Part shown: piece by piece, positions 2,791 to 38,225 of the stretch | How positions within the stretch are numbered: position 1 is the stretch's first letter | Layout: every line of letters starts with the position of its first letter | NCBI GenBank assembly: GCA_963575745.1 | Contig: CAUYUJ010000067.1 | Coordinates: 62,001 to 118,758, forward strand | Direction of reading: 5' to 3' | Source of the DNA: Prorocentrum cordatum | Lineage: Eukaryota | Length of the DNA: 56,758 bases | Program-made: the position numbers and the translations under genes | The notes under the pieces: generated by a model | What the model saw: only the letters and a program-made list of their open reading frames with translations | What the model was told of the DNA's origin: nothing | The model's database searches: none

Positions 2791-5007
2791 CTGAACGGCG
2801 GGCGTTGCGCATTTGTTGGCGCTTCGTGCTGCTTTCGGGTGGCCGGCAGGTCGGACCAAACCCCGCAGACTTCTGTTGAGGGGGCCGAGCAGTGTCTTGA
2901 ACTCCAGCGCGCCCAAGCATCCCTCCTGCAGCGGGGGCGGGGAAAGACGGAAAGCGCGCACAGCGTGTGATGTGTCAGTCGTGGGAATTGGATGAGTTTG
3001 ATTGGGTTGGCATGTGTAGCCCCGGTGATCTAGTAGCAAACATTGCGACGTTGCTGGGAACATCCTCGAAACACTGAGATGTCTCGGGATCCGTACTGGA
3101 AGGCTCCAAGACGGCTTAACATAGCCCAGCAAGATGGCTCTAACACGCCCCTTTTCCGGCCGAAATGGCGATTTCGCTAGGGACATCATGACATCCTCAC
3201 ACACATGCGATGTTGACGGTATCGCTCTTGCTCAATGTGGCGATTTCGTTAGGCACATCCTCGTAGCAATGACTTAGTCTTGGTCTCGATCTTGCCCAAC
3301 ATGGTGATTTCGCGAGCAAATGCGATATTCCCGACATCGTCGTCTTGGGATCGTTTCTGGAAGGCCTCAAGGCGGCCCAACATGGCCCAACACCACGGCC
3401 CAAGAGGGTCCCAAGGTGGCCCAAGACGGCTTCCGGATGGTCTCCAAGAGAGCCCAAGACGGTCCAAGACGGCTTCGCAGACGGCTCCTGACGGTGCAAG
3501 AGGCATCGAGAGGTCCAAGAGCATTCCAAGGCGGTCCAAGAGTCTGAAAGCGTTTCAAGACGGCCTACGAGGCAGGCTCCAAGAAGTCCCAAGAGGTCTC
3601 CAAGAGGATCCCGGAGATGGCCTGAAGGGACACATTTCAGCGATCCCGTTCATGTTTCTGAGCGTTCTCACATTTTCGAGCTTCCGCTAGGCTAAGAGGG
3701 CGCACGATGCCGCCAGGGTCGTGCCAAGACGGCCCAAGAGGCTCCCAAGAGGGTTCCAAAATGGTTCACGAGGGCCCGACGACGGCCCGAGAGTCTCCCA
3801 GGTCCAGACGGGGAAAACGCACGGTTTTGCAAAAGTGGGCGGTCCAAATATGGAAACAACGACATTCGGACAGCGGACTGTCCAAATGGGGAAAATGCAT
3901 GGTTCTGAAGAGCGGGTGGTCCGAGCGGTGAAAACACATATATAGTTTCTGCAGATTCCCTGTCACAGCTCCGCGCGCAGATGGACGGTCCAGGCACAGA
4001 AAACGCGACATTCGGACAGCGGGCGGTTCAAAAATGGAGCACACGTGGTTCTGGAAAGCGTGCGGGCAAAACGGGCAGAACACGATATGCGGATTCGAGA
4101 TGGCCGAAAATGGCAATTCCGCCAGGGGCATGTTTAATTTATGTTTCTAGCATCGTCTTGAAATCTCTCTTTGAAGGGCCTCACGACGGCTCAATAAGGC
4201 CCGACGACAGTTCGAGACGGCCCAATAGGGCCCCAATGATGATGCGATAAGGGCGAGGCGAGGGGAAGAGGGGACGTGAGGGGAGGAATAACGCACAACC
4301 CAGCGATCTCGTGCCATCATAGAGTAGGTTGCGCGTTCCGTTCTCGTGCCAAGCAGGTCTAGTAGCTTTCGGGACCATTTTGTCACCGCGGCTTGTTTGT
4401 TGACTTCCTCCTGGGGTCTCCTGGAGGGCCTCCTGGAGGGCCTCCTGGGGGGCCTCCTGGAGGCCGCCTGGGGGCCTCCCAAGGCTTGAGGGGTTCGGAA
4501 TATTTAATCTTTCGAGAGGGGCGCTTGAAGTCCTGCTGGCTGGTCGTCTCGGGGGGCATCCATCACCAGAGACAAAAAACGTACCGCTGTATCATCTAGG
4601 AGGGCGGCTGTCCCACCCTCTCGAGCTGGTAGCACCTCGTTCCCGGCATGCATCCAGAGAGCTCCTGGAAGGAGGTGCCACCGGCTCGAGAGGAGGGAGC
4701 GGCCACCCCCCTAGCTTTAAAAGACGGGCCTGTCCCTCTACAGGAGGAATATTCAAAAATAGTGCAAAAATAGTCGGGGGACGATTTTAGGAGGAATGTT
4801 CCAACAATAGTCAAAAAATTGTCGGGGGACGATGTTAAAACTATTTCGGATTATGTTTGGCGTATTTTTGGCGTATAATTGATTCCCAAGCATCCTGTGG
4901 TGTTGGTTCCTCGTTTTGAAGAGACAGCGCCCGCGTCCTCCTTCCTTCTCCCGCTGCCTCCCCTCCTCCCCCTCCTTGCCTCTGCCCTCCGCAGGTATTT
5001 CTGTCTG

Positions 5008-5830
5008 CACACCCCTCACACGTTTCGTGGCCCCATAGGGAGCTCCACCTAAGGTCCCAGTGGCGGAACTCGCATGGCGGCCCCGCCCCATTGTGGCACA
5101 CCCCTCACACGTTTCGTGGCCCCATAGGGAGGTCCAGGGAAGGTTCCAGTGGCGGAACTCGCATGGCGGCCCCGCCCCATTTTGGCACACCCCTCACACG
5201 TTTCGTGGCCCCAAAGGGAGATCCAATAAAAAGGCCCAGTGGCGGAGCTCGCATCGCGGCCCCGCCCCATTTTGGCACACCCATCAAACGCTTCGTGGCC
5301 CCATAGGGAGCTCCACCTAAGGCTCCCGTGGCGGAGCTCGCATCGCGGCCCCGCCCCCAGTGTGGCACACCCCTCACACGCTTCGTGGCCCCATAGGGAG
5401 CTCCACGTAAGGTCGCAGTGGCGGAACTCGCATGGCGGCCCCGCCCCATTTTGGCACACCCCTCACACGTTTCGTGACCCCACAAAGGGGGCTCCACCTA
5501 AGGTCCCTGTGGCGGAACTCGCATGGCGGCCTCGGGGCATTTCGGCACACCACTCACGCGCTTCGTGGCCCCATAAGGAGCTCCACCGATGCTCCCAGTA
5601 GCGCAGCTCGCATGGCGGCCTCTGGCCATTTCGGCACACCCCTCACACGCTTCGTGGCCCCACAAGGGGGCTCCACCAAAGGTCCCAGTGGCGGAGCTCG
5701 CATGGCGGCCCCGCCCCATTTGGGCACACCCTTCACACGGTTCGTGGCCCCATAGGGCCTAGGGAGCTCCACCTAAGGTCGCAGTGGCGCAGTTCGCATG
5801 GTTGTCCAGTGGCGGAATCCGCATGGCGGC
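5008..5830 (+). repeat. Tandem array of ~89-bp units (about 9 copies)
   Basis: Unit CACACCCCTCACACGTTTCGTGGCCCCATAGGGAGCTCCACC.AAGGTCCCAGTGGCGGAACTCGCATGGCGGCCCCGCCCCATTTTGG; starts at 5008 and 5097. Confidence 0.95.
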
Positions 5831-5859
5831 AAATTTCGATCTTTGGAGGTTTGGTGTCG

Positions 5860-6132
5860 TCTTCGGCGCATGGAGGCCGCTTTCGGGCCCCAGGCGTGAT
5901 CCTTGACTGCGCCACGAGGTCGGGAACGGCAAGAAGAAGGACGACCACTGGTGGCTGGAGTTCCACGTGCTGCTGTCGCGCGCCACGCGCCACGAGGACC
6001 TCCTGCTCGCGCGGGCGCCGCGCATCGAGTTCTTCCTGGCAGCAGTTTGCGGCGCGCACGAAGCGGCGCAGAAGGGAGGCGACGACCCTCGCCAGGGAGC
6101 TGGTCTTCACCGAGTTTATCCGTGAGGCTTGA
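5860..6132 (+). pseudogene. Frameshifted C-terminal fragment of a PIF1-family (Helitron RepHel-type) helicase
   Basis: SAHGGRFRAPGVILD, frameshift, HEVGNGKKKDDHWWLEFHVLLSRATRHEDLLLARAPRIEFFL, frameshift, QQFAARTKRRRREATTLARELVFTEFIREA-stop. HVLLSRAT matches SF1B motif VI (YV.LSR) and SAHG is at the position expected for motif V. Confidence 0.78.
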
Positions 6133-6783
6133 CCTGAGGAGCGGCCAGCCCAAGCCTCGCCGTCTCTCGACGGTCTGACAGTTTGGCCTCGCGCCGCGGG
6201 CGACCCGCGCGCGTCGCTGGGACCCTTTCGGGCCGACCAGCGCGCGTTGCGGGAATTCCGCGCTGCGCTGTGCCCAGATCCTCGCGCGCCCCCGTCGTCG
6301 CTTTGCCCAGCGGCCACAGCCTTGCCCGCCATCGGCCAGCCAGCTAGCTCTCTCTGCTCCGCGCAGCGGACGACCCGCGCGCGTCGCCGGGACCCCTCCG
6401 GGGCGACGGGCGCGCGTCGCGGGGGCTCCGCGCGGCGCCGCGTCCGCAGCCATGGACTTCGGCGCGCGCGGGCAGAGGGGCAGAAACAAAAGGGAAGGAA
6501 GCGGGCGCGATCCTCGCGAGGAGCCTGCCGACGTGGGCGTCGACATTCGCGCGCGCATAGACAGATTCGCGCGCGTACTCATTCACAATCAGACTCACTC
6601 GCGCTCAGATTCGCTCGTTCTCAGTCTCTCGCGCTCAGACCGACCGTCTTCGTTCGTGTGGCGGGCCCCGCCACGCATGTCGGCGCGCCCCCATCGCGCT
6701 GTTCGTGGCCCCGTGGGGAGCGCGAGCGAAGATGAGATTCACAATTTCGGTATTCACAACTGCACATGGTTGGGTCCCTTGCC

Positions 6784-6840
6784 ATATATATATATATGTA
6801 TATGTGTATATATATGTATATATGTATATGTGTATATATA
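6784..6840. repeat. (TA)n/(TG) microsatellite
   Basis: Direct reading. Confidence 0.95.
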
Positions 6841-6994
6841 ACACAATAAAAACGCCTGTAGGGGGACACGCCCGGCCTAACCCTAGCTGGTGGTATTGGT
6901 ACTTTTGTCTCTCCTGACTCTACGGGGAGACGAGCCTTTGAGGCCCGCTGCCTTGGAAGCTGTGGCGCCCGAGAGGACGAACACATTCAAGGAG

Positions 6995-7292
6995 CAGGGA
7001 GGAGGAGGAGGAGGAGGAGGAGGAGGAGGAGGAGGAGGAGGAGGAGGAAGAGGAGAGGAGGAGGAGGAGGAGAGGAGGAGGAGGAGGAGGAGGAGGAGGA
7101 GGAGGAGGAGGAGGAGGAGGGAGGAGGAGGGAGGAGGAGGAGGAGGAGGAGGAGAGGAGGAAGAGGAGGGGAGGAGACAGGGGGGCGGAGGAGGAGGAGG
7201 GAGGAGGAGGAGGGAGGGAGGAGGGGGGAGGGAGGGAGGAGGAGAGGAGGAGGAGGAGGAGGAGGAGGAGGGGGAGGAGGAGGAAGAGGAGG
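6995..7292. repeat. (GGA)n microsatellite at the 3' end of LINE copy 1
   Basis: Direct reading. Confidence 0.97.
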
Positions 7293-14564: not shown

Positions 14565-14574
14565 AATACTGAAG

Positions 14575-20696: not shown

Positions 20697-20711
20697 TGCT
20701 CTGGTATGTCA

Positions 20712-21645
20712 CTAGGATCTCGACAGGCTCGGCTTCCGCATCGCGAAATGGACCCTATCAGCCATATCAGCAAGAATCGTATGCAACATCTGCCCGTGCT
20801 TCTGTACTCCCTCGTCATTGGCACGGGCCTGCTTGAGGGCTGTCGCGATCTCGTGGGGGCTTGCCTTGGCCTGGAGCTGGCGGATGTCCTCGCCCTGCTC
20901 CTCGAGGCCTGCACAGGCTCGCCTCTTGTAGCATGTGCGGTTGCCGCTGAGGCATGCCCCATCTTCTTCCATCGCCACCGCCATCTTCTCTGCAGCGTTC
21001 GCCTTCTTCTTAGCCGCGAGCGCGAGGGCCGCCTCCAACTGCTTGATGGCCTCCGCGTCTTGCTCCTCGCCATCCGTCCTCATGGACTTCTTGGCGATCT
21101 CCAGGCGCGCGCAGACCGAGTCCCATCCCTTAGACTTGGGGGCCTGACCGGCGGCTTCTCCTTGACGCGGAGGGACTCGACTTTCTTGCCCGCCTGCTCG
21201 GCCTTGTTCTCTGCGATGTGCAGCTGAGTCTTGATGTCCTCGAGCTGCTGCTTGAGCTTCACCACTTGGGCGTCTGCCTTTGTCTGTGCTTCCTCTGCTC
21301 CACGGAGACTGCGGCGCACCGCCGCTTCCGCGTAGCATGCTGGTAGTTGTACTTCTTTTGGTGCCAGCAGCCCGTCGATCTGTTATTGCAGCTTCGTCGT
21401 GGCTTCCGATACGAACTCCATGCCAGGTTCCTGCGCGAGTTGTCCGAGATCTTTGTGGCGGGCCCTGAAAATCTCCAGCTTCTTCGCAAACCCTGAAAAT
21501 CGCCATCGGAGTCCTGGTGCGTGTCCTTCGAACCGTCGCCTTGCCCGTCACTCTTGGGCATCTGCCGAGGCTTCTTACACCAGTAGCATACTTTCGTCCT
21601 GTCCCAACAGTCATCAGTGTGGCACGCTGCGCAGGTCCACATCGC
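20712..21645 (-). pseudogene. ORF1-like protein of LINE copy 2: RanBP2-type zinc finger plus coiled coil
   Basis: MWTCAACHTDDCWDRTKVCYWCKKPR, then heptad-rich QVVKLKQQLEDIKTQLHIAENKAEQAGKKVESL and AEAIKQLEAALALAAKKK in shifted frames. Confidence 0.75.
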
Positions 21646-21759
21646 CAGACCTCTGGGGCATCTGGTTGCTCGGGGCGGCAGTGCCACTGCCAAGTTTGCC
21701 GCACCCTGCGACACGAGAAATCTCCTGGCACCTGGAAATCCTCGAGTCGGGCAATGGCT

Positions 21760-21828
21760 GAGGAGGAGGAGGAGGAGGAGGAGGAGGAGGAGGAGGAGGA
21801 GGAGGAGGGGGAGCAGGAGGAGGAGGAG
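21760..21828. repeat. (GAG)n microsatellite at the 5' end of LINE copy 2
   Basis: Direct reading. Confidence 0.95.
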
Positions 21829-22029
21829 GCCCCGCGCGCCGATGGTCGGCCCTCCGCCCCCCAGCCTTTGCACCCGAGCCGGCCCTGTGCCCCGCCCGCC
21901 CTGCCGCGCGCGCGCACGCACGCCGTGGTGGCCCTCCGCCCGGGCCTCGGGGTGGCTGGCCGGGAGACGGGCTGGCAGGTGCTGGTCGGCGCTGCGTAGA
22001 TCGGCTCTTATAAGCCCTGGAAGCGACAG

Positions 22030-23796: not shown

Positions 23797-23834
23797 CATC
23801 ATCATCATCATGATGATGCTGATGCTGATGCTGA

Positions 23835-23875
<41 letters not shown>

Positions 23876-23882
23876 ATTATGC

Positions 23883-23959
<77 letters not shown>

Positions 23960-23985
23960 GTGATGATGGTGCTGCTGCTGCTGAT
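23797..23985. repeat. (GAT)n/(GCT)n microsatellite
   Basis: Direct reading. Confidence 0.97.
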
Positions 23986-24259
23986 GAGGAGGAGGAGGGG
24001 GAGGAGGGGGAGGGAGGACGGTTGGAGAGATGATGGGGGAGGGGGGAGGGAGGAGGCAGGCTGGATTGCAACAGACGGGGTACGCAGCGATGGCAGAATC
24101 AATTGGCCGCACTTGTGCCATAATCTCCGTCATTCAGCGTGGCGTTTAGGTTACCCCAGGGACGCGAGGACAGCAGCGGTCGGATTTGTTTCCCCAACCA
24201 TCCTGTGGTGTTGGGTCTTCGTTTTGAAGAGACAGCGCCCCGCGTTCTTTCATCCTCTA

Positions 24260-24607
24260 CAATTACACAATATGAAAATACTCTCCCACTTCCCCTGATG
24301 GCGTCCCGAAGATATCCAACACCCCCCCGCGTATTGTTTTTAACGCAGGATTCCCGGGAAACGGGTTTTCGCTGGTGTTTTTTTTCAAAATGCTGCTCTC
24401 GCCGAGGCGCTGGCCTCATTTTCGGGCCCCGCTCGTTCCGAATCGTGCTCCCGCTGCAGCGCTGGCCTCATTTCCGTGCTTCCGCTCGTTCCGAATCGTG
24501 CTCCCGCTGCAGCGCTGGCCTCATTTCCGCGCTTCCGCCCGTTTCGACTCGTGCTCCCGCTGCAGCGCTGGCGTCATTTCCCGTGCCATGCCACAGCACA
24601 CGCGCAC

Positions 24608-24641
<34 letters not shown>

Positions 24642-24865
24642 CACACACACACCACCACCACCACCACCACCACCACCCACCCACACCACACCACACCACA
24701 CCACACCACACCACACCACACCACCACCACCACAACCACGCACACACGCACGCACGCACGCACGCGCACCACCACCCACTAGTCCGCGGATAGAGAAAAT
24801 CAGCGGCATGGTAAGGGATGGGAGGGAGGGGTAGGACGTCAGATATGACGCGCGCGCACCTAGCT
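24260..24865. mobile_element. Insertion between the head and array of copy B, with ~43-bp tandem units and a (CA)/(CACAC) tract
   Basis: Absent from copies A and C; repeats of CGTGCTCCCGCTGCAGCGCTGGCCTCATTT at 24390-24580. Confidence 0.6.
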
Positions 24866-24910
24866 TGCCTCATCCCCCTCCTCCCTCCCCCCATCATGCC
24901 CCTCACTTTG

Positions 24911-25526
24911 GCACAACCCTCACACGTTTCGTGGCCCCATAGGGAGTTCCACCGAAGGTCCCAGCGGCAGGGTTCGCATGCGGTTCCACCCCAATTCCGG
25001 TACGGGGAGCTCCACCGAAGGCCCCAGCGGCAGGGTTCGCATGCGGTTCCACCCCCAATTTCGGCACACCCCTCGCACGTGTCGTGGCCCCACAGGGGGC
25101 TCCATCGAAAGCCACAGAGGCAGAGTTCGCTTGCTGTTCCATCCACTTTTGGGCACACCCTTCACACGTTACATGGCCCCATAGGGAGCTCCGCCGCAGG
25201 CCCCAGTGGCAGGGTTCGCATGCAGTTCCATCCCAATTCCGGCACACCCCTCACACCCTTCGTGGCCCAATAAGGAGCTCCGCCGAAGGTCCCAGTGGCA
25301 GGGTTTGCATGCGGTTCCACCCTAATTTCGGCACACACTTTACACGTTTCTTGGACCCTTGGGGAGCTCCACCGAAGGCCCCAGCGGCAGGGTTCTCATG
25401 CGGTTCCACTTCAAATTTCGGCACACCCCTTGCACGTTTCGTGGCCCCATAGGGAGCTCCACCGAAGGCCTTAGTGGCAGGGTTCGCATGCGGTTCCACC
25501 CCACATGTCGGCACACCCCTCACACG
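24911..25526 (+). repeat. Tandem array of ~90-bp units, variant GGCAGGGTTCGCATGCGGTTCCACCCC
   Basis: Same CACACCCCTCACACGTTTCGTGGCCCCATAGGGAGCTCCACCGAAGG core as copy A. Confidence 0.95.
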
Positions 25527-25689
25527 TTAATGTCTCAAACCAGTTAAAAAATGATGACCTCTCCCTCCCTCCCCCCGGATCCCGACCGCCATTAATTCGC
25601 ATCCGAACAACTATTTGTTTTATCTGTCCCTCCTAGAAAAAATACATGGATGCCGATCGATGCCACTTGTATATACCTCGGTACCAGGG

Positions 25690-26430
25690 AGAATGCCGAT
25701 GGGGATGTTCCCGTCTTCCGATCAGAAAATCATTTTTTTCATTGGGTTATCGCCATTGGGATTTAGGAATTCAACATTGCCCCCGTGGTAGAACATCTAT
25801 CAGCGGTATGCCGCCGCCGCGCACGCGCCCGCGCGCGCGCGCGCGCGCGCGTTGGCGATTGGCATTTGTGCATTCAGCGTCGCATATCCACATGGGGATG
25901 TCCCCGTCTTCTGATCAGAGAATGATTTGTTTTGCATCGGGTTTTCGCCATTGGATTTTGGAGTTCAACCTCGCTCCCGTTGTATAAAACCTATCGGCGG
26001 CATGCCGCCGCCGCGCGCGCGTTGGCGATTGGCATGTGTGACTTCAGTGTCGCATATCCACATGGGGATGCTCCCATTTTCCGATCAGAGAATGATTTTT
26101 TACATTGGGTTTTCGCCATTGGGTTTGGGAGTTCAACGTGGCTCCCGTTGTATAGAAATTTATCAGCGGCATGCCGCCGCCTCGCGCGCGTTGGCGATCG
26201 GCATTCGTGCATTCAGTGTCGTATATCCACAGGGGGATGTTCCCGTCTTCCGATCAGAGAATGATTTTTCACATTGGGTTTTTGCTATTTGGGTTTGAAG
26301 TTCAACAGCGCCCTCATTGTATCAAATCTATCAGCGGCGCGCCGCCGCCGCGCGCGCGTTGGCGATTGGCATGTGTGACTTCAGTGTCGCAGATCCACAT
26401 GGGGATGTCCCCGTCCTCCGATCAGAGAAT
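25690..26430. repeat. ~175-bp satellite (TATCAGCGGCATGCCGCCGCCGCGCGCG...CGCATATCCACATGGGGATG...CCGATCAGAGAATG), block 1
   Basis: About 4 diverged tandem units. Confidence 0.92.
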
Positions 26431-26519
26431 GCTTCCCCATATCCTAAGATAGGGTTCTTGTTATTACTTGGACGCCTCCTACTCCCTCTCCCTCCTCCTC
26501 TTTCCTCCTCCCCTCCTGT

Positions 26520-27410
26520 CGGAGTTACTCATACACTCATACATACTCATACACAGACTTACTCATACACAGACTTACTCACACCCAGACGTACTCATAC
26601 ACAGACTCACTCATACCCAGACTTACTCATACACAGTACTAGTCATACTCAGACTTCGCTTGGAGAGCAGATTGTGAGGATGTCTCAGGCGGGGCGCTGG
26701 TTTCAGCACCCCTAAGGGGGGCCGCCAGGGGTGTTTGCACGGGCTCGTTCGCGGCCATTTTGTGGGGATGTCTTAGGCGGTTTGCTTGGTTTTGGGCCCA
26801 ACATCCTTCGCTGGGAGAGCAGATTGTGAGGATGTCTCAGGCGGGGTGCTGGTTTCAGCACCCCTAAGGGGAGCCGCCAGGGGTGTTTGCACGGGCTCGT
26901 TCGCGGCCATTTTGTGTGGATGTCTCAGGCGGTTTGCTTGTTTCTGGGCCCCACATCCTTCGCTTTCGGAGCAGATTTGGAGGATGTCTCGAGCGAGGCG
27001 CTCACTTTCACCCCCCAGGTGGGCCAGATTTTGAGGATGTCTCGACCGGTTTGCTTGTTTTGGTGGCCAGGCTCGTGGCCCTAAGGGGAGCCGCCAGGGG
27101 TGTTTGCACGGGCTCGTTCGCGGCCATTTTGTGGGGATGTCCCAGGCGGTTTGCTTGTTTCTGGGCCCCACATCCTTCGCTTTCGGAGCAGATTTGGAGG
27201 AGCCGCCAGGGATGGTTGCACGGGCTGGTTCGCGGCCATTTTGTGGGGATGTCTCAGGCGGTTTGCTTGTTTCTGGGCCCCACATCCTTTGCTTTCGGAA
27301 CAGATTTGGAGGATGTCTCGAGCGAGGCGCTCATTTTCACCCCCCAGGTGGGCCAGATTTTGAGGATGTCTCGATCGGTTTGCTTGTTTTGGTGGCCAGG
27401 CTCGTGGGCG
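26520..27410. repeat. Composite repeat: ACTCA(T/G)AC-rich tract plus GAGGATGTCTCAGGCG / GGGGAGCCGCCAGGG units; relative at 44460-45430
   Basis: Same unit motifs and the same ACTCA-rich neighbour at both loci. Confidence 0.8.
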
Positions 27411-27419
27411 CAGGTTCTT

Positions 27420-28060
27420 CTCAGGATGCCACAGGAGGCTCCAACAGGCTCCAGGAGGCCCCAGGAGACCACATGAGGTCCCAGGAGGCATCAGGAGGCC
27501 ACAGAAAAACTCAAGAGGCCACAGGATGTCCCAAGAGGCTCCAGGAGGCCCCAGGAAGCTCCAGAAGGCTTCAGGAAACCACAGGAGGCCCCAGGAGGCA
27601 ACAGGAAGCGCCAGGAGGCCTCGGAAGGCAACAGGAGGCCCCGAGAGGCCCCAGGAGCAGGAGGCCTCAGAAGGCAACAGGAGTGGCTCCAATCCCATGT
27701 GTTTTACGTATGCTCCTATCGATTGGGCCTTACCTGGGGCACGATTCTTTGATGTTCTACGTATGTTTATATAGATGGTCCTTCTCCTGTGTACACAATC
27801 CTAAATGTTTTACTCATGTTCCTATATATTGGGCCCCCCCCCTGGGGCACGAGTCCTTGGTGTTTTACGCGTGTTCCTATAAATTGCCCTTCTCCTGTGG
27901 TTCTAATCCGCAATGTTTTATGTACGTCTGTTGCTATAGATTGCGCCTCTCCTGGGGCACGAAACCTTCCTAGGAGGTCCCAGGAGGTACCAGCAGGGCT
28001 CCTGGAGACCCCAGGAAGCCCCAGTAGGTTTCAGGAGGCCCCAGGAGGCCCCAGGCTCAT
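27420..28060. repeat. (CCAGGAGGCC)n degenerate decamer, interrupted at ~27690-27965 by AT-richer tandem units
   Basis: Direct reading. Confidence 0.85.
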
Positions 28061-28233
28061 GCACAGAGACGCGCTTGTACTACTGAGGCTCATTCACACT
28101 CCAATTCATTCGCAGTTAGATTGATGTCCAGACCGTCACAACTGAAGCCCGTTAATATTCGAAAGCTCTTGCGCCTAGACACTCACGGCGGACAGGTCCA
28201 TGCGAGTAGATGCACATATGGGGAGCTCTACGC

Positions 28234-28235
<2 letters not shown>

Positions 28236-28313
<78 letters not shown>
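28236..28313. repeat. Poly-T run (~78 nt)
   Basis: Direct reading. Confidence 0.98.
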
Positions 28314-28314
28314 C

Positions 28315-29430
28315 ATTCGGGTTTTGCCATTGTGTTCTGGAGTGCAACATCGCTCCCGCTGTATCATATCTATCAGCGGCATGCCGCCGCCGCGCGCGCG
28401 CTCGTTGACGGTCGGCATTTGTGCATTCAGTGTCGCATATCCACATGGGGATGTTCCCGTATTCCGATCAGAGAATGAATTGTTACATTGGGTTTTCGCT
28501 TTTGGGTTTGGGGGATCACATTTCGCCCCGTTGGATAAAATCTATCAGCGGCATGCCGCCGCCGCGCGCGCGCGAAATTTCGCCCCGTTGTATAAAATCT
28601 ATCAGCGGCATGCCGCCGCCGCGCGCGAGCTGGCGCTTGGCATTTGTGCATTCAGCGTCGCATATCCACATGGGATGTTCATGTTCTCCGATCAGAGAAT
28701 GGTTTTTGACGCGGGGCTTTCGCCATTGAGCTTCGGAGTTCAACCTCGCTCCCGTTGTGTAAAACCTATCAGCGGCACGCCGCCGCGCGCGCGTTGGCGA
28801 TTGGCGTTTGTGCATTCAGTGTCGCATATCCACACGGGGATGTCCCCGTCTTCCGATCAGAGAATGGGTTGCCGCCACTGGGTTTTGGACTTCAACATGG
28901 CTCCCGCTGCATAGAAATCTATCAGCGGCATGCCGCCGCCGCGCGCGCGCTGGCGCTTGGCATTTGTGCATTCAGTGTCGCATTCCCACATGGGGATGTT
29001 CATGTTCTCCGATCAGATAATGAATTTTTACTTGGGGTTTTCGCCATAGGGTTTTGGAGTGCAACATCGCTCCCGTTGCATAGAACATAGCATCGGCATG
29101 CCGCCGCCGCGCGCGCGCCCCTTGGCGCTTGGCATTTGTGCATGCAGTGTCGTCTATCCGCATGGTGATGTTCCCGCTTTCCGATCAGAGAATGATTTTT
29201 ACATTGGGTTTTCGCCATTGGGTTTTGGAGATCAAATTTCGTCCCGTTGCAAAAAACTTATCAGCGGCATGCCGCCGCCGCGCGCGCGAAACTTCGTTCC
29301 GTTGAGTAGAAATTTATCAGCGGCATGCCGCCCGCCGCGCGCGCGCGTTGGGCGCTCGGCATTTGTGCATTCAGCGTCGCATATCCACATTGGGATGTTC
29401 CCGTCTTCCGATCAGAAAATGATTTTTCCC
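28315..29430. repeat. ~175-bp satellite, block 2 (fragment also at 30420-30510)
   Basis: About 6 units of the same consensus, preceded by poly-T. Confidence 0.92.
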
Positions 29431-29547
29431 GACCTGGGTTCTGCCTAGAAAAGGGCTCTTACTCGGTAAGCTTGAAGGGCCGGGCAGCGCAACCCGCCCC
29501 GGGCGGTTCCCCCAGTATTCGCCCCGCGGTTCCCCCAGCTACGTCCC

Positions 29548-30366
29548 CTTAGCTTAGCGTTGCTTATCTCATCTTAGCTTAGCTTATTTCATCTTCGCTT
29601 AGCTTATGTTGATTTTAGCTCTGGTCTATCTTAGCTTAGCTTACATTCGTCTTAGCTTCGCTGAGCTCTAGCATAGCAGAGCACATCATAACATATCATA
29701 GCGTAGCATATCATATCGCTGCACAGTATATCACAGCATAGCCCAGCATATCATCGCGCAGCATAGCATAGCATAGCATAGCATAGCATAGCATAGCGCA
29801 GCACAGCACAACACAGCATAGCACAGCGCAGCATAGCATAGCATAGCATAGCAGAGCATAGCCCAGCATAGCAGCACAGCAAAGGCAAATCAACAGCAGC
29901 GACAGCAAAGTAAAGCACAAGCAACGCAAAGCAAAGCAAAGCAAATGCAAAAGCACAGCAAAGGAAAGGCAAAGCAACAGCAATGTGCGACAGATGCCGG
30001 GCTAGCCTCGATGGCCGGACCGGAGCCCCCGCAAGCAGTGTCTTCCGGAGCCAGCTTAGCTTAGCTTGGCATAGCATAGCGCAGCGCTGTATTAGCATAG
30101 CCAAGCATAGCATAGCATAGCATAGCATAGCATAGCGCAGCGTAACATAGCCTAGCCTAGCATATCATAGCAGAACGTAACGCAGCTTTACATAACATAT
30201 CATATCATAACATAGCTTAGCATAACACAGCGCAGCATGACATAGCATAGCTTAGCATAGCATAGCGCAGCATCGAATAACATATCATATCATAGCATAG
30301 CGCAGCATAGCATAGCATAGCATAGCGCAGCATAGCATGGCATAGCACAGCATAGCATAGCATAGC
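29548..30366. repeat. (AGCAT)n / (AGCTT)n / (AGCAA)n pentanucleotide satellite
   Basis: Direct reading. Confidence 0.95.
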
Positions 30367-30921
30367 AACTAATGTTGCTTTCCTAGGGGCTCCACCTTCT
30401 AGGTAGGGTCGCACTGGGGTAATTTACATTGGGGTTTCGCCATTGGGTTTTGGGGGTTAAGATTGCCCCCGTTGTATCAAATCTATCAGCGGCATGCCGC
30501 ATTTGCATATTCAATGCCGCTTCGAAACCCAGACTGGGTGCGCGGTGCGCAGGGAGTGGTCCCTGAGCGCAGTCTCTATCCACGCTGGGGTCGCGGGGCG
30601 TGGCGTGCGTGGCCTGGCGCCAAGAGGGGGTGTTCAGGAATCTGTCCCTGCACGCAGGGCGCCAGGGCGGTCGCGGGGGCGTCACCAGCGATCCAGTTTC
30701 GATGGGCGCATTACAGCGCGGGGGAAAACCATTTTTTTAATGTCCCCCCAACTATTCTTAACCAGTTTTTTGACATTACGTGGCAGGGGTCGCGTGTTGT
30801 TCCACCCCAATCTCGGCACATCTCTCACACGCTTCGTAGCCCCATAGGGAGCCCCACCGAAGACGATTCTCACATTTGCGGCACTCGCAACTGCATATGG
30901 TTGGGTCCTTCGCCAGGCTAC

Positions 30922-33361
30922 TTTCTCCCCAGGGGGGGCGGCAGCGCTAAGGCGCGAAGGCTACTTCGCCAGGTGGCGTACGGTCGAAACTTTGTAATAC
31001 GGGCTGATTTGATTTCTGGGGTGGCGTGGAGTTTCCTCCGTTCTTCCCAGGGCGCTCCCAAAGCTAGCTTCGAGTGAGGCTACAGGGACCTCGTTCCCGT
31101 TTCGTGGTTCCTTGGGGGGGAGGTTAAGGAAGGAGGTTAAGGAGGAGACAGAGGACGGGGAGGAGGAAGAGGAGGAGGAGGAGGAGAAGGAGGGAACGGA
31201 CGATGATGAGGGTGGGGACGCGGACGATGATGATGCGGATGCTGATGTTGATGACTAGGTTGTTGCGGATAGTGATGATGTTGTTGATGAGGTTGGCGAT
31301 GGTGATTGTGATTATCGCGATTATGATGACGACGACGGCGACGACATGCTGATATGATACCCATGATGGTGTTGGTGATGATGATGAGGATGATGAGGAT
31401 GATGATGCTGCTGATGATGGCCGTGTTGATGGTCAGGATGCCGCTGATGAGGATGATGATGCTGCTAATGATGATGATGATGCTGATGCTGATGGTGATT
31501 ATGTTGTTGCGATTATTGTCGTTGATGCTGCTGATGATGCTGGTGATGGTGATGGTGTTGATTGCGATTAACATGACGAATACGGCGATGAACTGATGAT
31601 ACGAGACTGATGATGATGTTGGTGATGATGGTGATTATGTCGCTGATGATGGATGATTATGATGGTGGTGACGATGCTGATGAGGGTGATGATGATGATC
31701 CTGATTATGCTGATGCTAGTGTTGGTGATCATTGTGGTGGTTGTGACGATGCTGTTGGTGCCGATGATGATTTTAATAAGAATGGTGATGTCGGTGATAA
31801 TGACTGTGATGAGTGTGATGAAGCTGCAGATGACGATGGTGATGATGATGATTCCGATGATGCTCATGTTGATGCTGAGTATGGTTCTGATGATGGCGAT
31901 GAGTGTGGTGATGAGGATAATGCTGCTGATCATGATTGTGCGGCTGCTGCTTCTGATGATGCTGCTGATGATGATGCTGATGAGATCATGATGGCGATGA
32001 TGATGATGCTGCTGATGGTGATTATGCTGATAATCACGACAATGGCGATGCTGATAACAACGATGTTGATGACGAATATGATGCTGCGGCGGATGATGCT
32101 GCTGATGATGATGATGATGATGACGATGTTGATGCAGTTGCTGGTGATGATGATGCTGCTGATGCTGTTGCTGTGGGTGATGCTGCTGATGATGAGGAGG
32201 AGGGCGGAGGAGGAGGAAGAGGGGGAGGAGGGGGGGGAGGGAGGACGGTTGGAGGTAAAATGGATTGCAGCATATCCTACAGCAATCAGACGGGGGACGC
32301 AACGATGACAATCTCAAGTGACAGCATTCGCGCCATATACTCCGTCAATCAGCGAGGCGTTTAGGTCACCCGCAGGGACGCGAGGACAACAGCGGCCAGA
32401 GTTGTTTCTCCTCGGGGGGGGGGGGAGCGCTACGGCGCGCATACTTCTGCGCCAGGTGGCCTACGGCCGAAACTTTGGAATAGGGTATGATTTGATGACC
32501 GAGTGGGCGTATGGTTCCCTCCGTTCTTCCCAGAGCGCTCCTAAAGCTATCTTCAACTGAGGCCACACGGGGACCTCGTTTCATTATCGTGGCTGCTTGG
32601 GGGGGAAGGTGGAGTTCGGAGGACGAGGAGGAGTAGAAGGAAGATGATGACATGGATGATGGTGATTCTGATGATAATGATGATGGTGATGCTGATTGTG
32701 ATGATGCTGATGCTGGTGGTGATGATGATGCTGATGCTGATGCTGATGATGGTGGTGGTGCTGCCGATGATGATGATGCTGGTGGTAATGCTGACGCTGG
32801 TATTGATGATGATGATGATGCTGCTGATGCTGATGATGATGATGATGCTGATGATGATTGTGATGATGTTGATGAGGATGACAAGGCTGATGTTGATTAT
32901 GCTGACGATGCTGATGATGACAAAGGTGATGATGATACTGATGACGATGACGATGATGGCAATGGTGAGGATGATGATGATGTTGATGATGATGGTGATG
33001 AAGATGCAGATGACGACGACGATGATGATTGTGATGATGGCGATGACGAGGATGGTGATGCTGATGATGATGATGGTGCTGCTGATGATGATGCTGATGA
33101 TGCTGATGAAAATTATGATGCTGATGGCGGTGATGATAATGATGATGCTGATGATGACGATGCTGATGATGGTGAATCTGATGACGATGCTGATGGTGAT
33201 GCTGCTGATGATGGTGATGTTGATGCTGCTGCTGCTGATGATGATGATGATGGTGATGATGTGATAATACTACTGCTGATGCTGAGGATGATGATCAGGA
33301 GGACGAGGATGATGATGATGATGCTGATGATGCTGATGATGCTGATGATGATGATGATGAC

Positions 33362-33450
<89 letters not shown>

Positions 33451-35850: not shown

Positions 35851-36219
35851 ATCGCATCCCAGGCGGCCGCCCTCTCGCCATCCGGGGCCCCCGCGGGCCG
35901 GGTTCGGGCCTTGGGGCCGTCCGAGACGCAGCTCATGGCGAGAAGCTGGGCCACGGCAAGGGGTCGAGAGGGTCGAGCCGAGGGGTGTCTTGGGTCTTGG
36001 GAGGGTGGACGATGGAGAGAGCCGCGCGGGGGTGTGCGGTAGGCTCGTGTCGCGTCGACGCGGCGGCGACACCGCCGCGGGCCTTCAGGGTTGAACGCCG
36101 CCAGTGGCCCAAATCGGCCTGAGATGGAAAGGTCCGGCGATCGAAAAGCCGCCGATCGATCGTCCAAGTTTGAACGATCTACGCGGTCTCACAAGCCAAC
36201 GCTGGGTTCGTCACGACAG

Positions 36220-36426
36220 GAGCTTGCCGCATGGGAGAGGGCATATTGCAACCTCATTGGACTGATCTCGCGCTGCCTGGGAAAGGTTCCAAGCGCCGGA
36301 CGATACGGTTCGCAACGGGTGAAATGGATCTTGAACTGAATGCGACACAGAGAGACTTGCGTTTGCCGGACGTGGCGGAATACAACCAGCTTATTGAGGG
36401 AAGAGGCTTCATACAATTCTTGAGAG
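36220..36426 (+). CDS. Candidate exon of an unidentified gene
   Basis: CAG| ... AG|GC boundaries, open frame ACRMGEGILQPHWTDLALPGKGSKRRTIRFATGEMDLELNATQRDLRLPDVAEYNQLIEGRGFIQFLR, non-repetitive island; no family recognised. Confidence 0.4.
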
Positions 36427-36504
36427 GCTGACTGCGAGGCTTACTTAGCTGCTTGAGAGGCTCCTTCAGAGCTAAGCTGGCTGTCTCCGTCTCTGCCTCT
36501 TTTT

Positions 36505-38225
36505 CCCAACCATCCTGTGGTGTTGGGTCCTCGTTTTGAAGAGACGGTGCACCGCGTTCCCGCCTCCTTCCTCCACCTCCCCCCTCCTCCCCCTCCCACA
36601 CCCATTCTGGCACACCCCTCACACGCTTCGTGGCCCCAGAGGGAGCTCCACCGAAGGCCCCAGTGGCTGCGCTCGCATGCGGTTCCACCCCCCATTCTGG
36701 CACACCCCTCACACGTTTCGTGGCCCCATAGGGAGCTCCACCGAAGGCCCCAGTGGCTGCGCCCGCATGCGGTTCCACCCCCCATTCTGGCACACCCCTC
36801 ACACGTTTCGTGGCCCCATAGGGAGCTCCACCGAAGGCCCCAGTGGCTGCGCCCGCATGCGGTTCCACCCCCCAATTCTGGCACACCCCTCACACGTTTC
36901 GTGGCCCCATAGGGAGCTCCACCGAAGGCCCCAGTGGCTGCGCCCGCATGCGGTTCCACCCCCCATTCTGGCACACCCCTCACACGTTTCGTGGCCCCAT
37001 AGGGAGCTCCACCGAAGGCCCCAGTGGCTGCGCCGCATGCGGTTCCATGCATTCTGGCACACCCTTCACACGTTTCGTGGCCCCATAGGGAGCTCCACCG
37101 AAGGCCCCAGTGGCTGCGCTCGCATGCGGTTCCACCCCCTGGCACTCACACGTTTCGTGGCCCCATAGGGAGCTCCACCGAAGGCCCCAGTGGCTGCATG
37201 CGGTTCCACGGCACACCCCTTTTCGTGGCCCCATAGGGAGCTCCACCGAAGGCCCCAGTGGCTGCGCCCGCATGCGGTTCCACCCCCCATTCTGGCACAC
37301 CCCTCACACGTTTCGTGGCCCCATAGGGAGCTCCACCGAAGGCCCCAGTGGCTGCGCCCGCATGCGGTTCCACCCCCCATTCTGGCACACCCCTCACACG
37401 CTTCGTGGGTGGCTCCATGGGGAGCTCCACCGAACGCCCCAGTGGCTGCGCTCGCATGTGGTTCCCCCCCCATTTCGGCACACCCCTCACACGGTTCGTG
37501 GCCCCATAGAGAGCTCCACCGAAGGCCCCAGTGGCTGCGCTCGCATGCGGTTCCACCCCCTTTTTCGGCACGCCCTTCACACGTCTCGTGGCCCCATAGG
37601 GAGCTCCACCGAACGCCGCAGTGGCTGCGCTCGCATGCGGTTCCACCCCCCATTTCGGCACACCCCTCACACGTTTCGTGGCTCCATAGGGAGCTCCACC
37701 GAAGGCCCCAGTGGCTGCGCTGGCATGCGGTTCCACACCCCATTCTGGCACACCCCTCGCACGTTTCGTGGCCCCATAGGGGGCTCCACCAAAGGTCCCA
37801 GTGGCACTGCCCGCTTGCGTCCGCCACCACCCAGCACAGCCCTTGTTCCCTGCGCTTCACCCACCCAGAACAGCGCTTCGTAGCCCTATAGGGAGCTCCA
37901 CCAAAGGTCCCAGCGGCACCGCCCGCATGCGTCCGCCACCACCCTGCACAGCCCTTGCTCCCTGCCTGCGTTTCACCCACCCAGTACAGCGTTTCGTGGC
38001 CCCATAGGGAGCTCCACCGAAGGTCCCAGTGGCACCGCTCGCATGCGTCCGCCACCACGCAGCACAGCCCTTGCTGACCGCGTCTCACCCACCCAGTACA
38101 GCGTTTCGTGGCCCCATAGGGAGCTCCACCGAAGGTCCCAGTGGCACCGCCCGCATGCGTCCGCCACCACCCAGCACAATTGCGGCATTCACAACTGCAT
38201 ATGGTTGGGTCCTTCGCCAGGCTAA
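36505..38225 (+). mobile_element. Helentron/DINE-1-like element, copy C (cleanest copy)
   Basis: TTTT|CCCAACCATCCTGTGGTGTTGGG head, 90-bp array 36611-38177, tail ATGGTTGGGTCCTTCGCCAGGCTAA|TTT. Confidence 0.82.
36611..38177 (+). repeat. Tandem array of 90-bp units switching to longer ~115-bp variants after ~37800
   Basis: Units start at 36611, 36701 and 36791; later units carry GCGTCCGCCACCACCCAGCACAGCCCTTG...CACCCACCCAGTACAGCG. Confidence 0.96.

What the first reader, a model, noticed from the sequence alone, without database searches (positions are those of the whole stretch)
4885..38225. Helentron/DINE-1-like rolling-circle family carrying amplifiable ~90-bp tandem arrays (3 copies)
Seen: three loci (4885-6784, 24192-30921, 36505-38225) share one plan. 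It runs T-run, head CCCAACCATCCTGTGGTGTTGGG (self-complementary CCCAAC/GTTGGG), a tandem array with core CACACCCCTCACACGTTTCGTGGCCCCATAGGGAGCTCCACC, tail ATGGTTGGG (inverse of head CCCAACCAT), a tiny CCT-TCGCC-AGG hairpin, then a T-run. Known: a 5' subTIR with adjacent inverted repeat, central tandem repeats, a 3' subTIR with stem-loop and TT insertion sites define Helentron-associated elements such as Drosophila DINE-1. Inference: this apparent satellite is the cargo of a rolling-circle transposon. I am not aware of such a family being described in dinoflagellates.
Basis: partly seen in the sequence, partly recalled or inferred. Interest (0 to 1): 0.82.

Follow-up and report, generated by a model that had tools for sequence, protein, structure and literature searches.

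The report
Rolling-circle transposon carrying satellite arrays
Three stretches of this dinoflagellate-like DNA are copies of a non-coding jumping element of the Helitron type, and its body is a tandem 90-base repeat, so the apparent satellite is spread around the genome by a transposon.

Summary
Three co-oriented copies (4885-6783, 24193-30921, 36505-38225) share a ~55-nt head, 89-90-bp arrays and a ~60-nt tail. At least 12 further copies with different flanks occur in 13 independent metagenome contigs.

The ends fit the Helitron2/HINE plan:
- a 9-nt 5' inverted repeat (CCCAACCAT) that folds on itself;
- its complement (ATGGTTGGG) 16 nt from the 3' end;
- a 3-bp mini-hairpin after that complement;
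- strand-specific insertion into T-runs.

A paralogous empty site at 32282-32554 shows that copy 2 (6.7 kb) is one discrete insertion. It has at most a 4-nt (TTTC) duplication or terminal-T ambiguity.

Copy 1 keeps the last ~98 codons of a RepHel transposase just upstream of its tail. Longer relatives of that protein carry DUF6570, Helitron_like_N and a PIF1-like helicase. No AP endonuclease was found in the 17 long homologues scanned, so the partner looks Helitron2-like, not Helentron proper. The closest named proteins are from Prorocentrum cordatum.

A Helitron2-like RepHel has already been reported in Symbiodinium. I found no description of this non-autonomous, array-bearing family. Verdict: a real, new member of a known kind. 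No full autonomous copy with both ends was seen.

The parts
4885..6783 (+). Copy 1: an old deletion derivative. Order: head, CT-rich tract, 89-bp array, RepHel 3' remnant, UTR-like stretch, one unit remnant, tail. The last ~7 nt are lost into (AT)n.
4885..4907 (+). Copy 1 head (5' ATIR plus partner of the 5' hairpin). It has 2 mismatches and the stem is weakened (-2.0 kcal/mol).
5007..5757 (+). Copy 1 array: 8.4 units of 89 bp, 85% matches.
5874..6134 (+). Remnant of the last ~98 codons of a RepHel (PIF1-like helicase motif VI region). It is frame-shifted by a ~30-nt deletion at 6040/6042.
   Evidence: (tblastn P0004 residues 2526-2623)
6766..6774 (+). Copy 1 3' ATIR, ATGGTTGGG.
24193..30921 (+). 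Copy 2: 6729-bp insertion, absent from the paralogous empty site. The array is interrupted by about 5.2 kb of other repeats.
24193..24215 (+). Copy 2 head: 5' ATIR CCCAACCAT and hairpin CCCAAC/GTTGGG.
24905..25528 (+). Copy 2 array: about 7 units of 89 bp, 79-80% alike.
25529..30770 (+). Block that interrupts the copy 2 array. It holds 168-bp and 152-bp tandem families, 16-bp and 5-bp microsatellites and a T78 run. It is secondary insertions or captured DNA; this was not resolved.
30897..30921 (+). Copy 2 3' ATIR (30897-30905) plus the terminal 16 nt TCCTTCGCCAGGCTAC with the CCT/AGG mini-hairpin.
36505..38225 (+). Copy 3: the youngest and most compact copy. Order: head, CT-rich tract, two consecutive arrays, tail.
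36505..36527 (+). Copy 3 head: 5' ATIR and 5' hairpin (-4.8 kcal/mol as DNA).
36601..37805 (+). Copy 3 array of about 13 units of 90 bp (89-95% matches; some units carry deletions).
37762..38178 (+). Copy 3 second array: 3.7 units of 112 bp that share the core.
38201..38225 (+). Copy 3 3' ATIR (38201-38209) plus the terminal 16 nt ending in CTAA.
32282..32554 (+). Paralogous empty site of copy 2. The junction word TTTC lies at 32405-32408 within GTTGTTTCTCC.

Best explanation
The three loci are copies of a non-autonomous Helitron2-like (HINE-like) rolling-circle transposon family of a Prorocentrum-like dinoflagellate.

Anatomy of a copy:
- a 5' end, (T)CCCAACCAT..., whose first 6 nt pair with GTTGGG 11 nt downstream to form the 5' hairpin;
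- about 30 conserved nt, then a CT-rich microsatellite-like tract;
- one or two consecutive tandem arrays of 89-90, 76-77 or 112-120 bp, with 1 to about 17 units;
- about 45 conserved nt;
- the 3' inverted repeat ATGGTTGGG;
- a terminal 16 nt, TCCTTCGCCAGGCTA[A/C], holding a 3-bp hairpin.

Inferred mechanism. A RepHel protein supplied in trans (DUF6570 + HUH Rep + PIF1-like helicase) nicks at the 5' end and peels off one strand 5' to 3'. It stops where the 3' inverted repeat and hairpin are read, and pastes the strand into a T-run in a fixed orientation with no regular target duplication.

Origin of the array forms. Array-only forms arise from coding elements by internal deletion. Copy 1 is such a derivative and still holds the last ~98 codons. 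Arrays grow and homogenise locally by slippage or unequal exchange, and are then dispersed by transposition.

Shown here: anatomy, multiplicity, T-run preference, one insertion/empty-site pair, the RepHel remnant, and local homogenisation of arrays. Inferred: nicking, strand peeling, termination and trans-mobilisation.
For: 1. Multiplicity. There are 3 copies in the window. An exact-word scan for the core found 14 metagenome contigs, 13 of them independent because L003 = L004. A co-oriented head lies upstream of the array in 9 of 11 cases where at least 150 nt upstream is visible. A tail lies downstream in 9 of 12 cases. Flanks differ between copies.

2. Asymmetric ends. The 9-nt inverted repeat sits at the very 5' end but 16 nt from the 3' end. 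Those 16 nt are conserved in 8 of 9 independent tails and are absent from the empty site. The 5' hairpin is intact in 5 of 8 heads, at -4.8 to -5.2 kcal/mol against about -2.1 +/- 1.4 for shuffles. This matches the Helitron2 definition (PMC3627910) and the HINE/Cg_HINE plan (PMC4067079; PMC7492417).

3. Target. T makes up 32 of 40 bases in the 5 nt before 8 heads and 31 of 40 in the 5 nt after 8 tails. Background T is 0.205 (p about 1e-15). The T-run is always on the element's own strand.

4. Empty site. The flanks of copy 2 (24043-24192 and 30922-31071) match 32282-32408 and 32405-32554 at 82% and 81%. The empty site reads GTTGTTTCTCC. The filled site reads GTTGTTTC|CCCAAC...GGCTAC|TTTCTCC.

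5. RepHel link.
- Window 5874-6134 matches the C-terminus of P0004 (residues 2526-2623; 86% identity over 43 aa).
- P0004 (2623 aa) has Helitron_like_N (E 6e-14) and DUF6570. P0012 has these plus PIF1.
- A helicase profile hits PIF1 structures at 8e-22 and Helraiser at 4.6e-8.
- P0001 and P0003 are gene calls that start in a translated array unit and run into the same helicase C-terminus.
- 932 contigs of run X1 lie on 5874-6798. None lies beyond 6799 and few lie before 5874.

6. Arrays. Mean unit identity within an array (79-93%) is at least as high as to any other array in all 7 arrays with 2 or more units; other arrays reach 73-88%, and c2 is marginal at 79% within against 80% to c3.
Against: - No full-length autonomous copy with head, RepHel and tail on one molecule was seen. 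The head was never seen next to a RepHel gene.
- The RepHel remnant is present in only 1 of about 15 copies. It could in principle be a captured fragment.
- The X1 contigs are short (about 170-380 nt), so continuity from helicase end to tail is piecewise.
- The 3' hairpin has only 3 bp (0 to -1.5 kcal/mol as DNA; 5 bp in L011). It is absent in L006.
- The 3' inverted repeat lies 16 nt from the end, against about 20-30 nt in the published definition.
- The one empty site shows TTTC on both sides. This could be a 4-bp target duplication.
- Misses: 2 of 11 array 5' sides (L003, L007) and 3 of 12 array 3' sides (L002, L008, L010) lack a head or tail within the contig.
- The metagenome copies were found through an exact 24-mer of the core, so the sample is biased towards well-kept arrays.
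- P0002 and P0004 alone give no significant PDB hit. P0002 alone is below Pfam's PIF1 cut-off.
Confidence: 0.8

Rival explanations
1. A cut-and-paste TIR element (MITE) with 9-bp inverted repeats and a short (about 4-bp) target duplication, mobilised by a DDE transposase. The RepHel piece in copy 1 would be unrelated captured DNA.
For: CCCAACCAT and ATGGTTGGG are inverted repeats near both ends. The one empty site has TTTC on both sides of the insertion. Tandem-repeat-bearing MITEs have been reported (listing of PMC3879986).
Against: The 3' repeat is not terminal. Sixteen conserved nt follow it in 8 of 9 tails and belong to the insertion. The flanking identity is 4, 3 and 1 nt in the three complete copies c2, c3 and L009, which is not a fixed length. 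The T-run target is strand-specific rather than palindromic. No transposase of any kind was found in the window ORFs by Pfam.
Confidence: 0.07
2. A single-strand 'peel-and-paste' element of another HUH type (IS200/IS605-like, or an unknown enzyme) that only resembles Helitron2 ends. The RepHel fragment would be a passenger.
For: Subterminal hairpins, insertion next to a short fixed word (T-run) and no regular duplication also describe IS200/IS605-type elements; this is recalled knowledge, not tested. The head was never seen beside RepHel.
Against: The helicase end, UTR and tail form one high-copy unit in run X1, and its cover stops at the tail. Array-unit-to-helicase fusions recur in P0001 and P0003. 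No TnpA- or TnpB-like ORF was seen.
Confidence: 0.05
3. A SINE-like retroposon read on the minus strand. The T-run before the head would be its poly(A) tail.
For: On the minus strand, every copy ends in CCCAAC...GGTTGGG followed by 2-5 A.
Against: The T-run already exists in the empty site, and no A/T tail was added. The duplication is at most 4 nt. T-runs flank both ends. No tRNA, 7SL or 5S-like RNA family matched. The RepHel remnant lies in the + orientation.
Confidence: 0.03
4. Ordinary satellite DNA copied with its surroundings by segmental duplication. No transposition is involved.
For: The window does hold a local segmental duplication around copy 2.
Against: That duplication holds copy 2 in one copy only, with sharp ends. 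Similarity in 15 or more copies stops at the same head and tail nucleotides, with unrelated flanks beyond.
Confidence: 0.02

Closest known systems
Helitron2 group (Bao & Jurka 2013, PMC3627910; passages read), e.g. Helitron-1N1_CRe of Chlamydomonas
   Same: Short asymmetric terminal inverted repeats (9 nt here; 8-15 in the definition). The 5' repeat is at the end and folds on downstream bases. The 3' repeat is subterminal and followed by a hairpin. The 5' neighbour is T, and insertion follows a T-run without a regular duplication. The RepHel partner has no endonuclease.
   Different: The 3' repeat is 16 nt from the end, not about 20-30. The 3' hairpin has only 3 bp. The body is a long tandem array. 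The host is a dinoflagellate. The RepHel relatives are very long (2,600 aa) and carry an N-terminal DUF6570.
HINE / DINE-1 and oyster Cg_HINE non-autonomous Helentrons (PMC4067079; PMC7492417, abstract and section 7)
   Same: The same order of modules: 5' subTIR, complementary IR a few nt away, microsatellite-like tract, central tandem repeats (sometimes two array types in a row), 3' subTIR, small palindrome. T-rich/TT target. Strings of T at the boundaries. The arrays resemble satellite DNA.
   Different: The partners of HINEs encode an AP endonuclease. None was found in 17 long homologues here. The subTIR is 9 nt, against 11-15. There is no sequence similarity to those elements. The hosts of HINEs are animals.
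Helitron2-like RepHel element of Symbiodinium microadriaticum (Heringer & Kuhn 2022, PMC8788227; passages read)
   Same: A dinoflagellate RepHel without AP endonuclease, described there as structurally Helitron2-like.
   Different: That report concerns one coding element placed in a helicase tree. No non-autonomous family, terminal sequences or tandem arrays appear in the passages I read.
Canonical Helitron1 (5'-TC ... CTRR-3', A|T target), as summarised in PMC3627910
   Same: RepHel of HUH + PIF1 type. The 3' end reads CTAA in 4 of 8 scorable independent tails (c3, L006, L007, L009), which fits CTRR. There is no regular duplication.
   Different: This family has terminal inverted repeats and a 5' hairpin. 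The flanks are T and T, not A and T. Two of the 8 tails end in CTAC (L003 and c2); L011 and L014 end differently.

Membership tests
Helitron2 group | [quoted passage not shown] | tested here: met
   CCCAACCAT (9 nt) starts where similarity between copies starts, directly after the flanking T. Its complement ATGGTTGGG lies near the 3' end.
Helitron2 group | 5' hairpin formed by the 5' ATIR with downstream bases | tested here: met
   CCCAAC pairs with GTTGGG across an 11-nt loop. The stem is intact in 5 of 8 heads, at -4.8 to -5.2 kcal/mol against shuffles of about -2.1 +/- 1.4. It is broken in the 3 degenerate heads, and no compensatory changes were seen.
Helitron2 group | 3' ATIR subterminal (about 20-30 bp from the end), immediately upstream of a 3' hairpin | tested here: inconclusive
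   The repeat is subterminal, 16 nt from the end (20 nt if the TTTC belongs to the element). It is followed at once by CCT-N5-AGG. That stem has only 3 bp (5 bp in L011; CTT/AAG in L014) and is absent in L006.
Helitron2 group | Insertion after a T-run, no target duplication, T at the 5' boundary | tested here: inconclusive
   The T-run preference is strong: 32 of 40 and 31 of 40 bases are T. The single empty site leaves a 4-nt TTTC ambiguity. Flank identity is 4, 3 and 1 nt in the 3 complete copies.
Helitron2 group | Autonomous partner encodes RepHel (HUH Rep + PIF1-like helicase) that falls in the Helitron2 clade | tested here: inconclusive
   A RepHel 3' remnant lies in copy 1. Relatives carry Helitron_like_N and PIF1. 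Clade placement was not tested, because no named reference sequences were at hand. No full copy with both ends was seen.
Helentron / HINE (DINE-1-like) | Partner RepHel carries a C-terminal AP endonuclease | tested here: not met
   No Exo_endo_phos domain was found in any of 17 long homologues scanned with Pfam: 6 at E<=1e-3 and 11 at E<=1e-4. Four distant ones carry a UCH domain instead.
Helentron / HINE (DINE-1-like) | subTIRs (11-15 bp), IR or palindromic subTIR at the 5' end, 3' palindrome, central repeats or microsatellite, T-rich/TT target | tested here: met
   All modules are present in the published order. The subTIR is 9 nt, slightly shorter than published.
Canonical Helitron1 | 5'-TC and CTRR-3' ends, no inverted repeats, insertion between A and T | tested here: not met
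   Inverted repeats and a 5' hairpin are present. The 5' host base is T in 8 of 8 heads, allowing one extra C in c2. CTAA is seen in only 4 of 8 tails.
TIR (cut-and-paste) MITE | Terminal inverted repeats at both extreme ends and a fixed-length target duplication | tested here: not met
   The 3' repeat is followed by 16 conserved nt that belong to the insertion. Flank identity is variable.

The most novel reading that the evidence does not exclude
Helitron2-like elements may be a major, so far unannotated source of dispersed satellite-like arrays in the giant genomes of free-living dinoflagellates. The array may not be passive cargo. A unit copy sits on each side of the RepHel gene: the 5' array, and a solitary unit about 45 nt before the 3' inverted repeat in 8 of 9 tails. 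Recombination between them would therefore repeatedly shed the gene and create new array-only parasites.

A bolder extension follows from the 3' end, which looks like a splice acceptor (pyrimidine tract + CAG|G). Combined with the 8-20-nt inverted repeats and 3-5-nt direct repeats used to call 'introner elements' in P. cordatum (PMC10666404), some of these copies might be scored as, or act as, introners.
Probability: 0.25. Interest if true: 0.65.

Novelty: new member of a known kind. Interest (0 to 1): 0.45.

Why it matters
Dinoflagellate genomes are huge and repeat-rich, and much of that repeat content is unclassified. The P. cordatum genome paper and a 2024 review of dinoflagellate genomics contain neither the word Helitron nor 'rolling'.

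A family with defined ends gives annotators a concrete model: head, tail, array core, target and a RepHel link. With it they can mask and count a class of 'satellites' that are really transposon bodies. It also lets them look for autonomous partners.

The family extends the link between Helitron-type elements and satellite DNA from insects, mites and molluscs to alveolates. It adds terminal-sequence data to the single Helitron2-like RepHel noted in Symbiodinium.

Tried and rejected
- Own genome: not held, so no genome-wide census was possible.
- Rfam at gathering thresholds: 0 matches in the window. The units are therefore not a known RNA gene.
- A recalled 21-nt dinoflagellate spliced-leader motif: 0 matches at up to 3 mismatches. 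The CCATTTTGGC in the copy 1 units is probably chance.
- Pfam on 4 ORFs of the copy 1 interior, 16 large window ORFs and 6 ORFs of L010/L007: nothing significant.
- The copy 1 interior 5830-6650 has no DNA match in the 14 loci.
- Earlier findings of this scan: none.
- Sequencing runs: one holder with only 0.12 of the words. When laid, X2 gave 0 contigs and X3 gave 1 contig. No habitat or absence claim is made from these.
- Viral contigs, searched for RepHel relatives and for the tail: none. Prokaryote genome contigs, searched for the head: none.
- phmmer of P0002 and of P0004 against PDB: 0 hits. Only the profile worked.
I could not check whether any hit is the published Symbiodinium accession.
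- Inverted-repeat scan of the block that interrupts copy 2: swamped by CG-rich words. Its nature stays open.
- The extra N-terminal 646 residues of P0017 are not translated array units.
- Flank search with 17 flanks: only the two flanks of copy 2 found an empty site. The L003 and L014 flank hits are dispersed repeats.

Full report
**Observation**

- The 23-nt head occurs three times on the + strand, at 4885 (2 mismatches), 24193 and 36505. None was expected by chance. Each head is followed by the same TCGTTTTGAAGAGAC.
- The 42-nt array core occurs 17 times at up to 3 mismatches, only inside the three loci.
- Tandem Repeats Finder reports arrays of period 89 (5007-5757), 89 (25005-25528), 90 (36601-37805) and 112 (37762-38178).
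- The tail word ATGGTTGGG lies at 6766, 30897 and 38201. It is the reverse complement of the first nine bases of the head.
- The 30-nt tail is identical in copies 2 and 3. It is eroded in copy 1, whose end runs into an (AT)n microsatellite.
- Alignments of the junctions show that similarity starts exactly at CCCAAC and stops at ...CCAGGCTA[A/C].
- A relaxed BLAST found no other head, tail or unit in the window. The only outside hits were CCT-rich low complexity.

**More copies elsewhere**

No genome is held for the window. I therefore scanned the metagenome collection for the exact 24-nt core. This returned 14 contigs from two data sets, of which L003 and L004 are the same locus.

BLAST and fuzzy matching found heads in L001, L005 (diverged), L009, L010, L012 and L013. 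They found tails in L003/L004, L006, L007, L009, L011 and L014. L009 is a complete 1.6-kb copy with a single unit.

Counting the window copies as well:
- A co-oriented head lies upstream of the array in 9 of 11 cases where at least 150 nt upstream is visible. The misses are L003 and L007.
- A tail lies downstream in 9 of 12 cases. The misses are L002, L008 and L010. L005 has only 95 nt downstream and was not counted. Arrays that run into a contig end were also not counted.

Flanks outside the head and tail are unrelated between copies. This sample was retrieved through a perfect core word, so it is biased towards well-kept arrays.

**Anatomy of the ends**

The 9-nt inverted repeat is asymmetric.
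- At the 5' end it is terminal. Its first six bases pair with GTTGGG eleven bases downstream. This stem is intact in 5 of 8 heads, at -4.8 to -5.2 kcal/mol as DNA against about -2.1 +/- 1.4 for shuffles.
- At the 3' end it is followed by 16 further conserved bases, TCCTTCGCCAGGCTA[A/C]. These are present in 8 of 9 independent tails.
The stem is weak (0 to -1.5 kcal/mol). It is 5 bp in L011, changes on both sides to CTT/AAG in L014, and is lost in L006.
- Between the head and the array lies a CT-rich, microsatellite-like tract.
- About 45 nt before the 3' repeat, 8 of 9 tails carry the end of one array unit (...GGGAGCTCCACCGAAG).

[quoted passage not shown] It is also the order published for HINE/DINE-1 and oyster Cg_HINE elements: 5' subTIR, complementary IR, microsatellite, central tandem repeats (sometimes two array types in a row), 3' subTIR and palindrome (PMC4067079, passages; PMC7492417, abstract and section 7).

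**Target**

In the five bases before 8 heads, 32 of 40 are T. In the five bases after 8 tails, 31 of 40 are T. Copy 1 was dropped from the tail count because its end is lost, and L004 was dropped as a duplicate. Background T is 0.205, giving p of about 1e-15. The T-run is always on the element's own strand.

**An empty site**

I searched 17 flanks against everything held. The two flanks of copy 2 hit one place in the window. Bases 24043-24192 match 32282-32408 (82%), and 30922-31071 match 32405-32554 (81%). The paralogy extends to about 400-480 bp on each side.

- The empty site reads GTTGTTTCTCC.
- The filled site reads GTTGTTTC|CCCAAC ... GGCTAC|TTTCTCC.

The whole 6,729-bp copy 2, including its complex interior, is therefore one insertion with sharp ends. 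The four bases TTTC stand on both sides. This has two possible readings:
- a 4-bp target duplication; or
- the usual boundary ambiguity of elements that carry and target T strings. Two of the five possible registers place the cut between T and T.

In the three complete copies the flank identity is 4 nt (c2), 3 nt (c3) and 1 nt (L009). This argues against a fixed-length duplication but does not settle the matter.

**Link to a RepHel transposase**

The copy 1 interior holds a stop-free frame (5907-6125) with a helicase motif-VI-like peptide. Pfam alone saw nothing. A search among longer proteins found P0001-P0003 at 84-89% identity.
- P0002 (598 aa) has Walker A and the other SF1 motifs.
- P0001 and P0003 are gene calls that begin in a translated array unit and continue into the same helicase C-terminus. 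Their junction points differ from the one in copy 1.

Longer relatives of P0002 include the following:
- P0004: 2623 aa, 78% identical to P0002, with DUF6570 at 189-344 and Helitron_like_N at 693-878 (E 6e-14). It has an HPH motif near residue 873.
- P0012: Helitron_like_N plus PIF1.
- P0017: an NCBI protein named Prorocentrum cordatum, 75% identical to P0004 over 1706 aa.
- P0013: named Symbiodinium sp. CCMP2592.

A 14-sequence helicase profile hits PIF1 structures at 8e-22 and Helraiser (7lcc) at 4.6e-8. Eight of the 14 members pass E<=1e-3 for Pfam PIF1. The library of representatives holds 762 relatives at E<=1e-3.

tblastn of all fetched proteins against the window and loci hits only 5874-6134. 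This corresponds to residues 2526-2623 of the 2623 residues of P0004. Copy 1 therefore keeps the very end of the gene, in the element's orientation. About 630 bp of UTR-like DNA, one unit remnant and the tail follow it.

None of the 17 long homologues scanned has an AP endonuclease domain. Four distant ones have a UCH domain.

**Independent support from a sequencing run**

Only one public run held part of the window, with a word share of 0.12. I laid its contigs on 5800-6900 at 80% likeness.
- 932 contigs lie on 5874-6798.
- None lies beyond 6799, and very few lie before 5874.
- Most carry 30-32 extra bases at 6040/6042. These restore the frame seen in P0001 and P0002, so copy 1 has a deletion there.

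The helicase end, UTR and tail thus behave as one high-copy unit that ends at the tail. The contigs are short, so this continuity is piecewise. Summed depth is not a copy number.

**Arrays**

Unit periods are 89-90, 76-77 and 112-120 bp. The number of units per copy ranges from 1 (L009) to about 17 (copy 3). Two array types can follow one another, as in copy 3 and L013.

Mean unit identity within an array is 79-93%. It is at least as high as identity to any other array in all 7 arrays with 2 or more units; other arrays reach 73-88%, and c2 is marginal at 79% within against 80% to c3. Arrays are therefore homogenised or expanded locally. Array subtypes are also shared between copies: copy 1 units are closest to L013 and L012. 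Variants therefore travel with the element.

**Mechanism**

The mechanism is inferred. RepHel is supplied in trans and nicks at the 5' end next to the T-run. The helicase peels the strand. The 3' inverted repeat and hairpin mark the stop. Bao & Jurka suggest that pairing of the two repeats dissolves the 5' hairpin and sets the end point. The strand is then pasted into another T-run.

Array-only forms are deletion derivatives. Unit copies lie on both sides of the gene, which offers an obvious route for such deletions.

**Rivals**
- A cut-and-paste MITE is disfavoured by the non-terminal 3' repeat and by the variable flank identity.
- A minus-strand SINE is disfavoured because the T-run pre-exists in the empty site and no tail was added.
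- Plain segmental duplication is excluded by the sharp, shared ends.
- A different single-strand HUH system cannot be fully excluded until a head-RepHel-tail copy is seen.

**Organism and literature**

The longest window ORF (18477-20708, minus strand) has its best hits to Prorocentrum cordatum proteins at 81% identity. The RepHel relatives point the same way. The source is therefore a Prorocentrum-like dinoflagellate.

Literature checks:
- A Helitron2-like RepHel without endonuclease has been noted in Symbiodinium microadriaticum (PMC8788227, passages).
- Four full-text searches found no description of a non-autonomous or array-bearing family: Helitron + dinoflagellate, 34 papers with 20 listed; Symbiodiniaceae + transposable elements + Helitron; Prorocentrum + Helitron, 1 paper; and Helentron with dinoflagellate names.
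- The one Prorocentrum + Helitron paper only counts Pfam domains in ocean samples.
- The P. cordatum genome paper and a 2024 review contain neither 'Helitron' nor 'rolling'.
- The HELIANO paper contains none of the alveolate terms I tried.
- Helitron-derived introners are reported for a fungus, not for dinoflagellates, in the passages I read of PMC12130899.
- I did not see Repbase or the supplementary tables, and they might hold related entries.

**Verdict**

This is a real mobile family and a new member of a known kind (Helitron2-like, with HINE architecture). It is of moderate interest.

Noticed in passing
window 18477-22007 (minus strand): A 743-aa open frame (18477-20708) is 81% identical to Prorocentrum cordatum proteins that UniRef calls 'reverse transcriptase domain-containing'. 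Pfam itself gave no hit. It is probably a retroelement. A 431-aa frame (20712-22007) lies next to it.
   Followed up: partly
window 26525-27400 and 44523-45378: A second composite repeat occurs twice: once inside copy 2 and once 18 kb away, at 75-78% identity. It consists of a 16-bp ACTCA-type microsatellite followed by 152-bp tandem units. It may be another array-bearing mobile element.
   Followed up: partly
window 25680-26431, 28314-29420, 30420-30500; T-run 28236-28313: A 156-224-bp tandem family (unit contains ...ATCAGCGGCATGCCGCCGCCGCGCGCG...) lies in three blocks inside copy 2. One block starts right after a perfect run of 78 T.
   Followed up: no
window 25528-25550 and 30738-30778: The 5.2-kb block that interrupts the copy 2 array begins with TTAATGTC...AACCAGTT. 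It ends with TTAATGTC...AACCAGTTTTTTGACATTA, that is, short direct and inverted words at its borders. The array does not resume in register. Whether this is a nested transposon was not resolved.
   Followed up: partly
window 23810-24192 + 30922-31396 versus 31997-32857: A local segmental duplication of about 860 bp (71-82% identity) includes (ATG)n/(GAT)n microsatellites. This duplication provided the empty site.
   Followed up: yes
window 45407-49691 and 55517-55854: Several kb of (AC)n, (CACGCA)n and related C/A-rich repeats lie on one strand. GC skew falls to -0.40 and AT skew rises to +0.63.
   Followed up: no
L001 394-419 (minus strand) and 943-966 (plus strand): Two head-like sequences point away from each other on one 1-kb contig, each followed by units. 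The second is degenerate (5 errors).
   Followed up: no
L010 1763-3382 (+): A 539-aa open frame lies inside a copy, between the array and the contig end. It has no Pfam hit. It is possibly captured host DNA.
   Followed up: partly
proteins P0053, P0061, P0077, P0094: Distant relatives of the helicase carry a C-terminal ubiquitin hydrolase (UCH) domain. P0061 also has eight DUF4116 repeats. This recalls the protease domains reported on some Helitron-type proteins.
   Followed up: no
proteins P0002, P0003, P0130, P0004 (between helicase motifs V and VI): A stretch of about 40 residues (REGDGAG...) is absent from relatives such as P0084 and P0109. It looks like an unspliced intron read through by the gene callers.
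   Followed up: no
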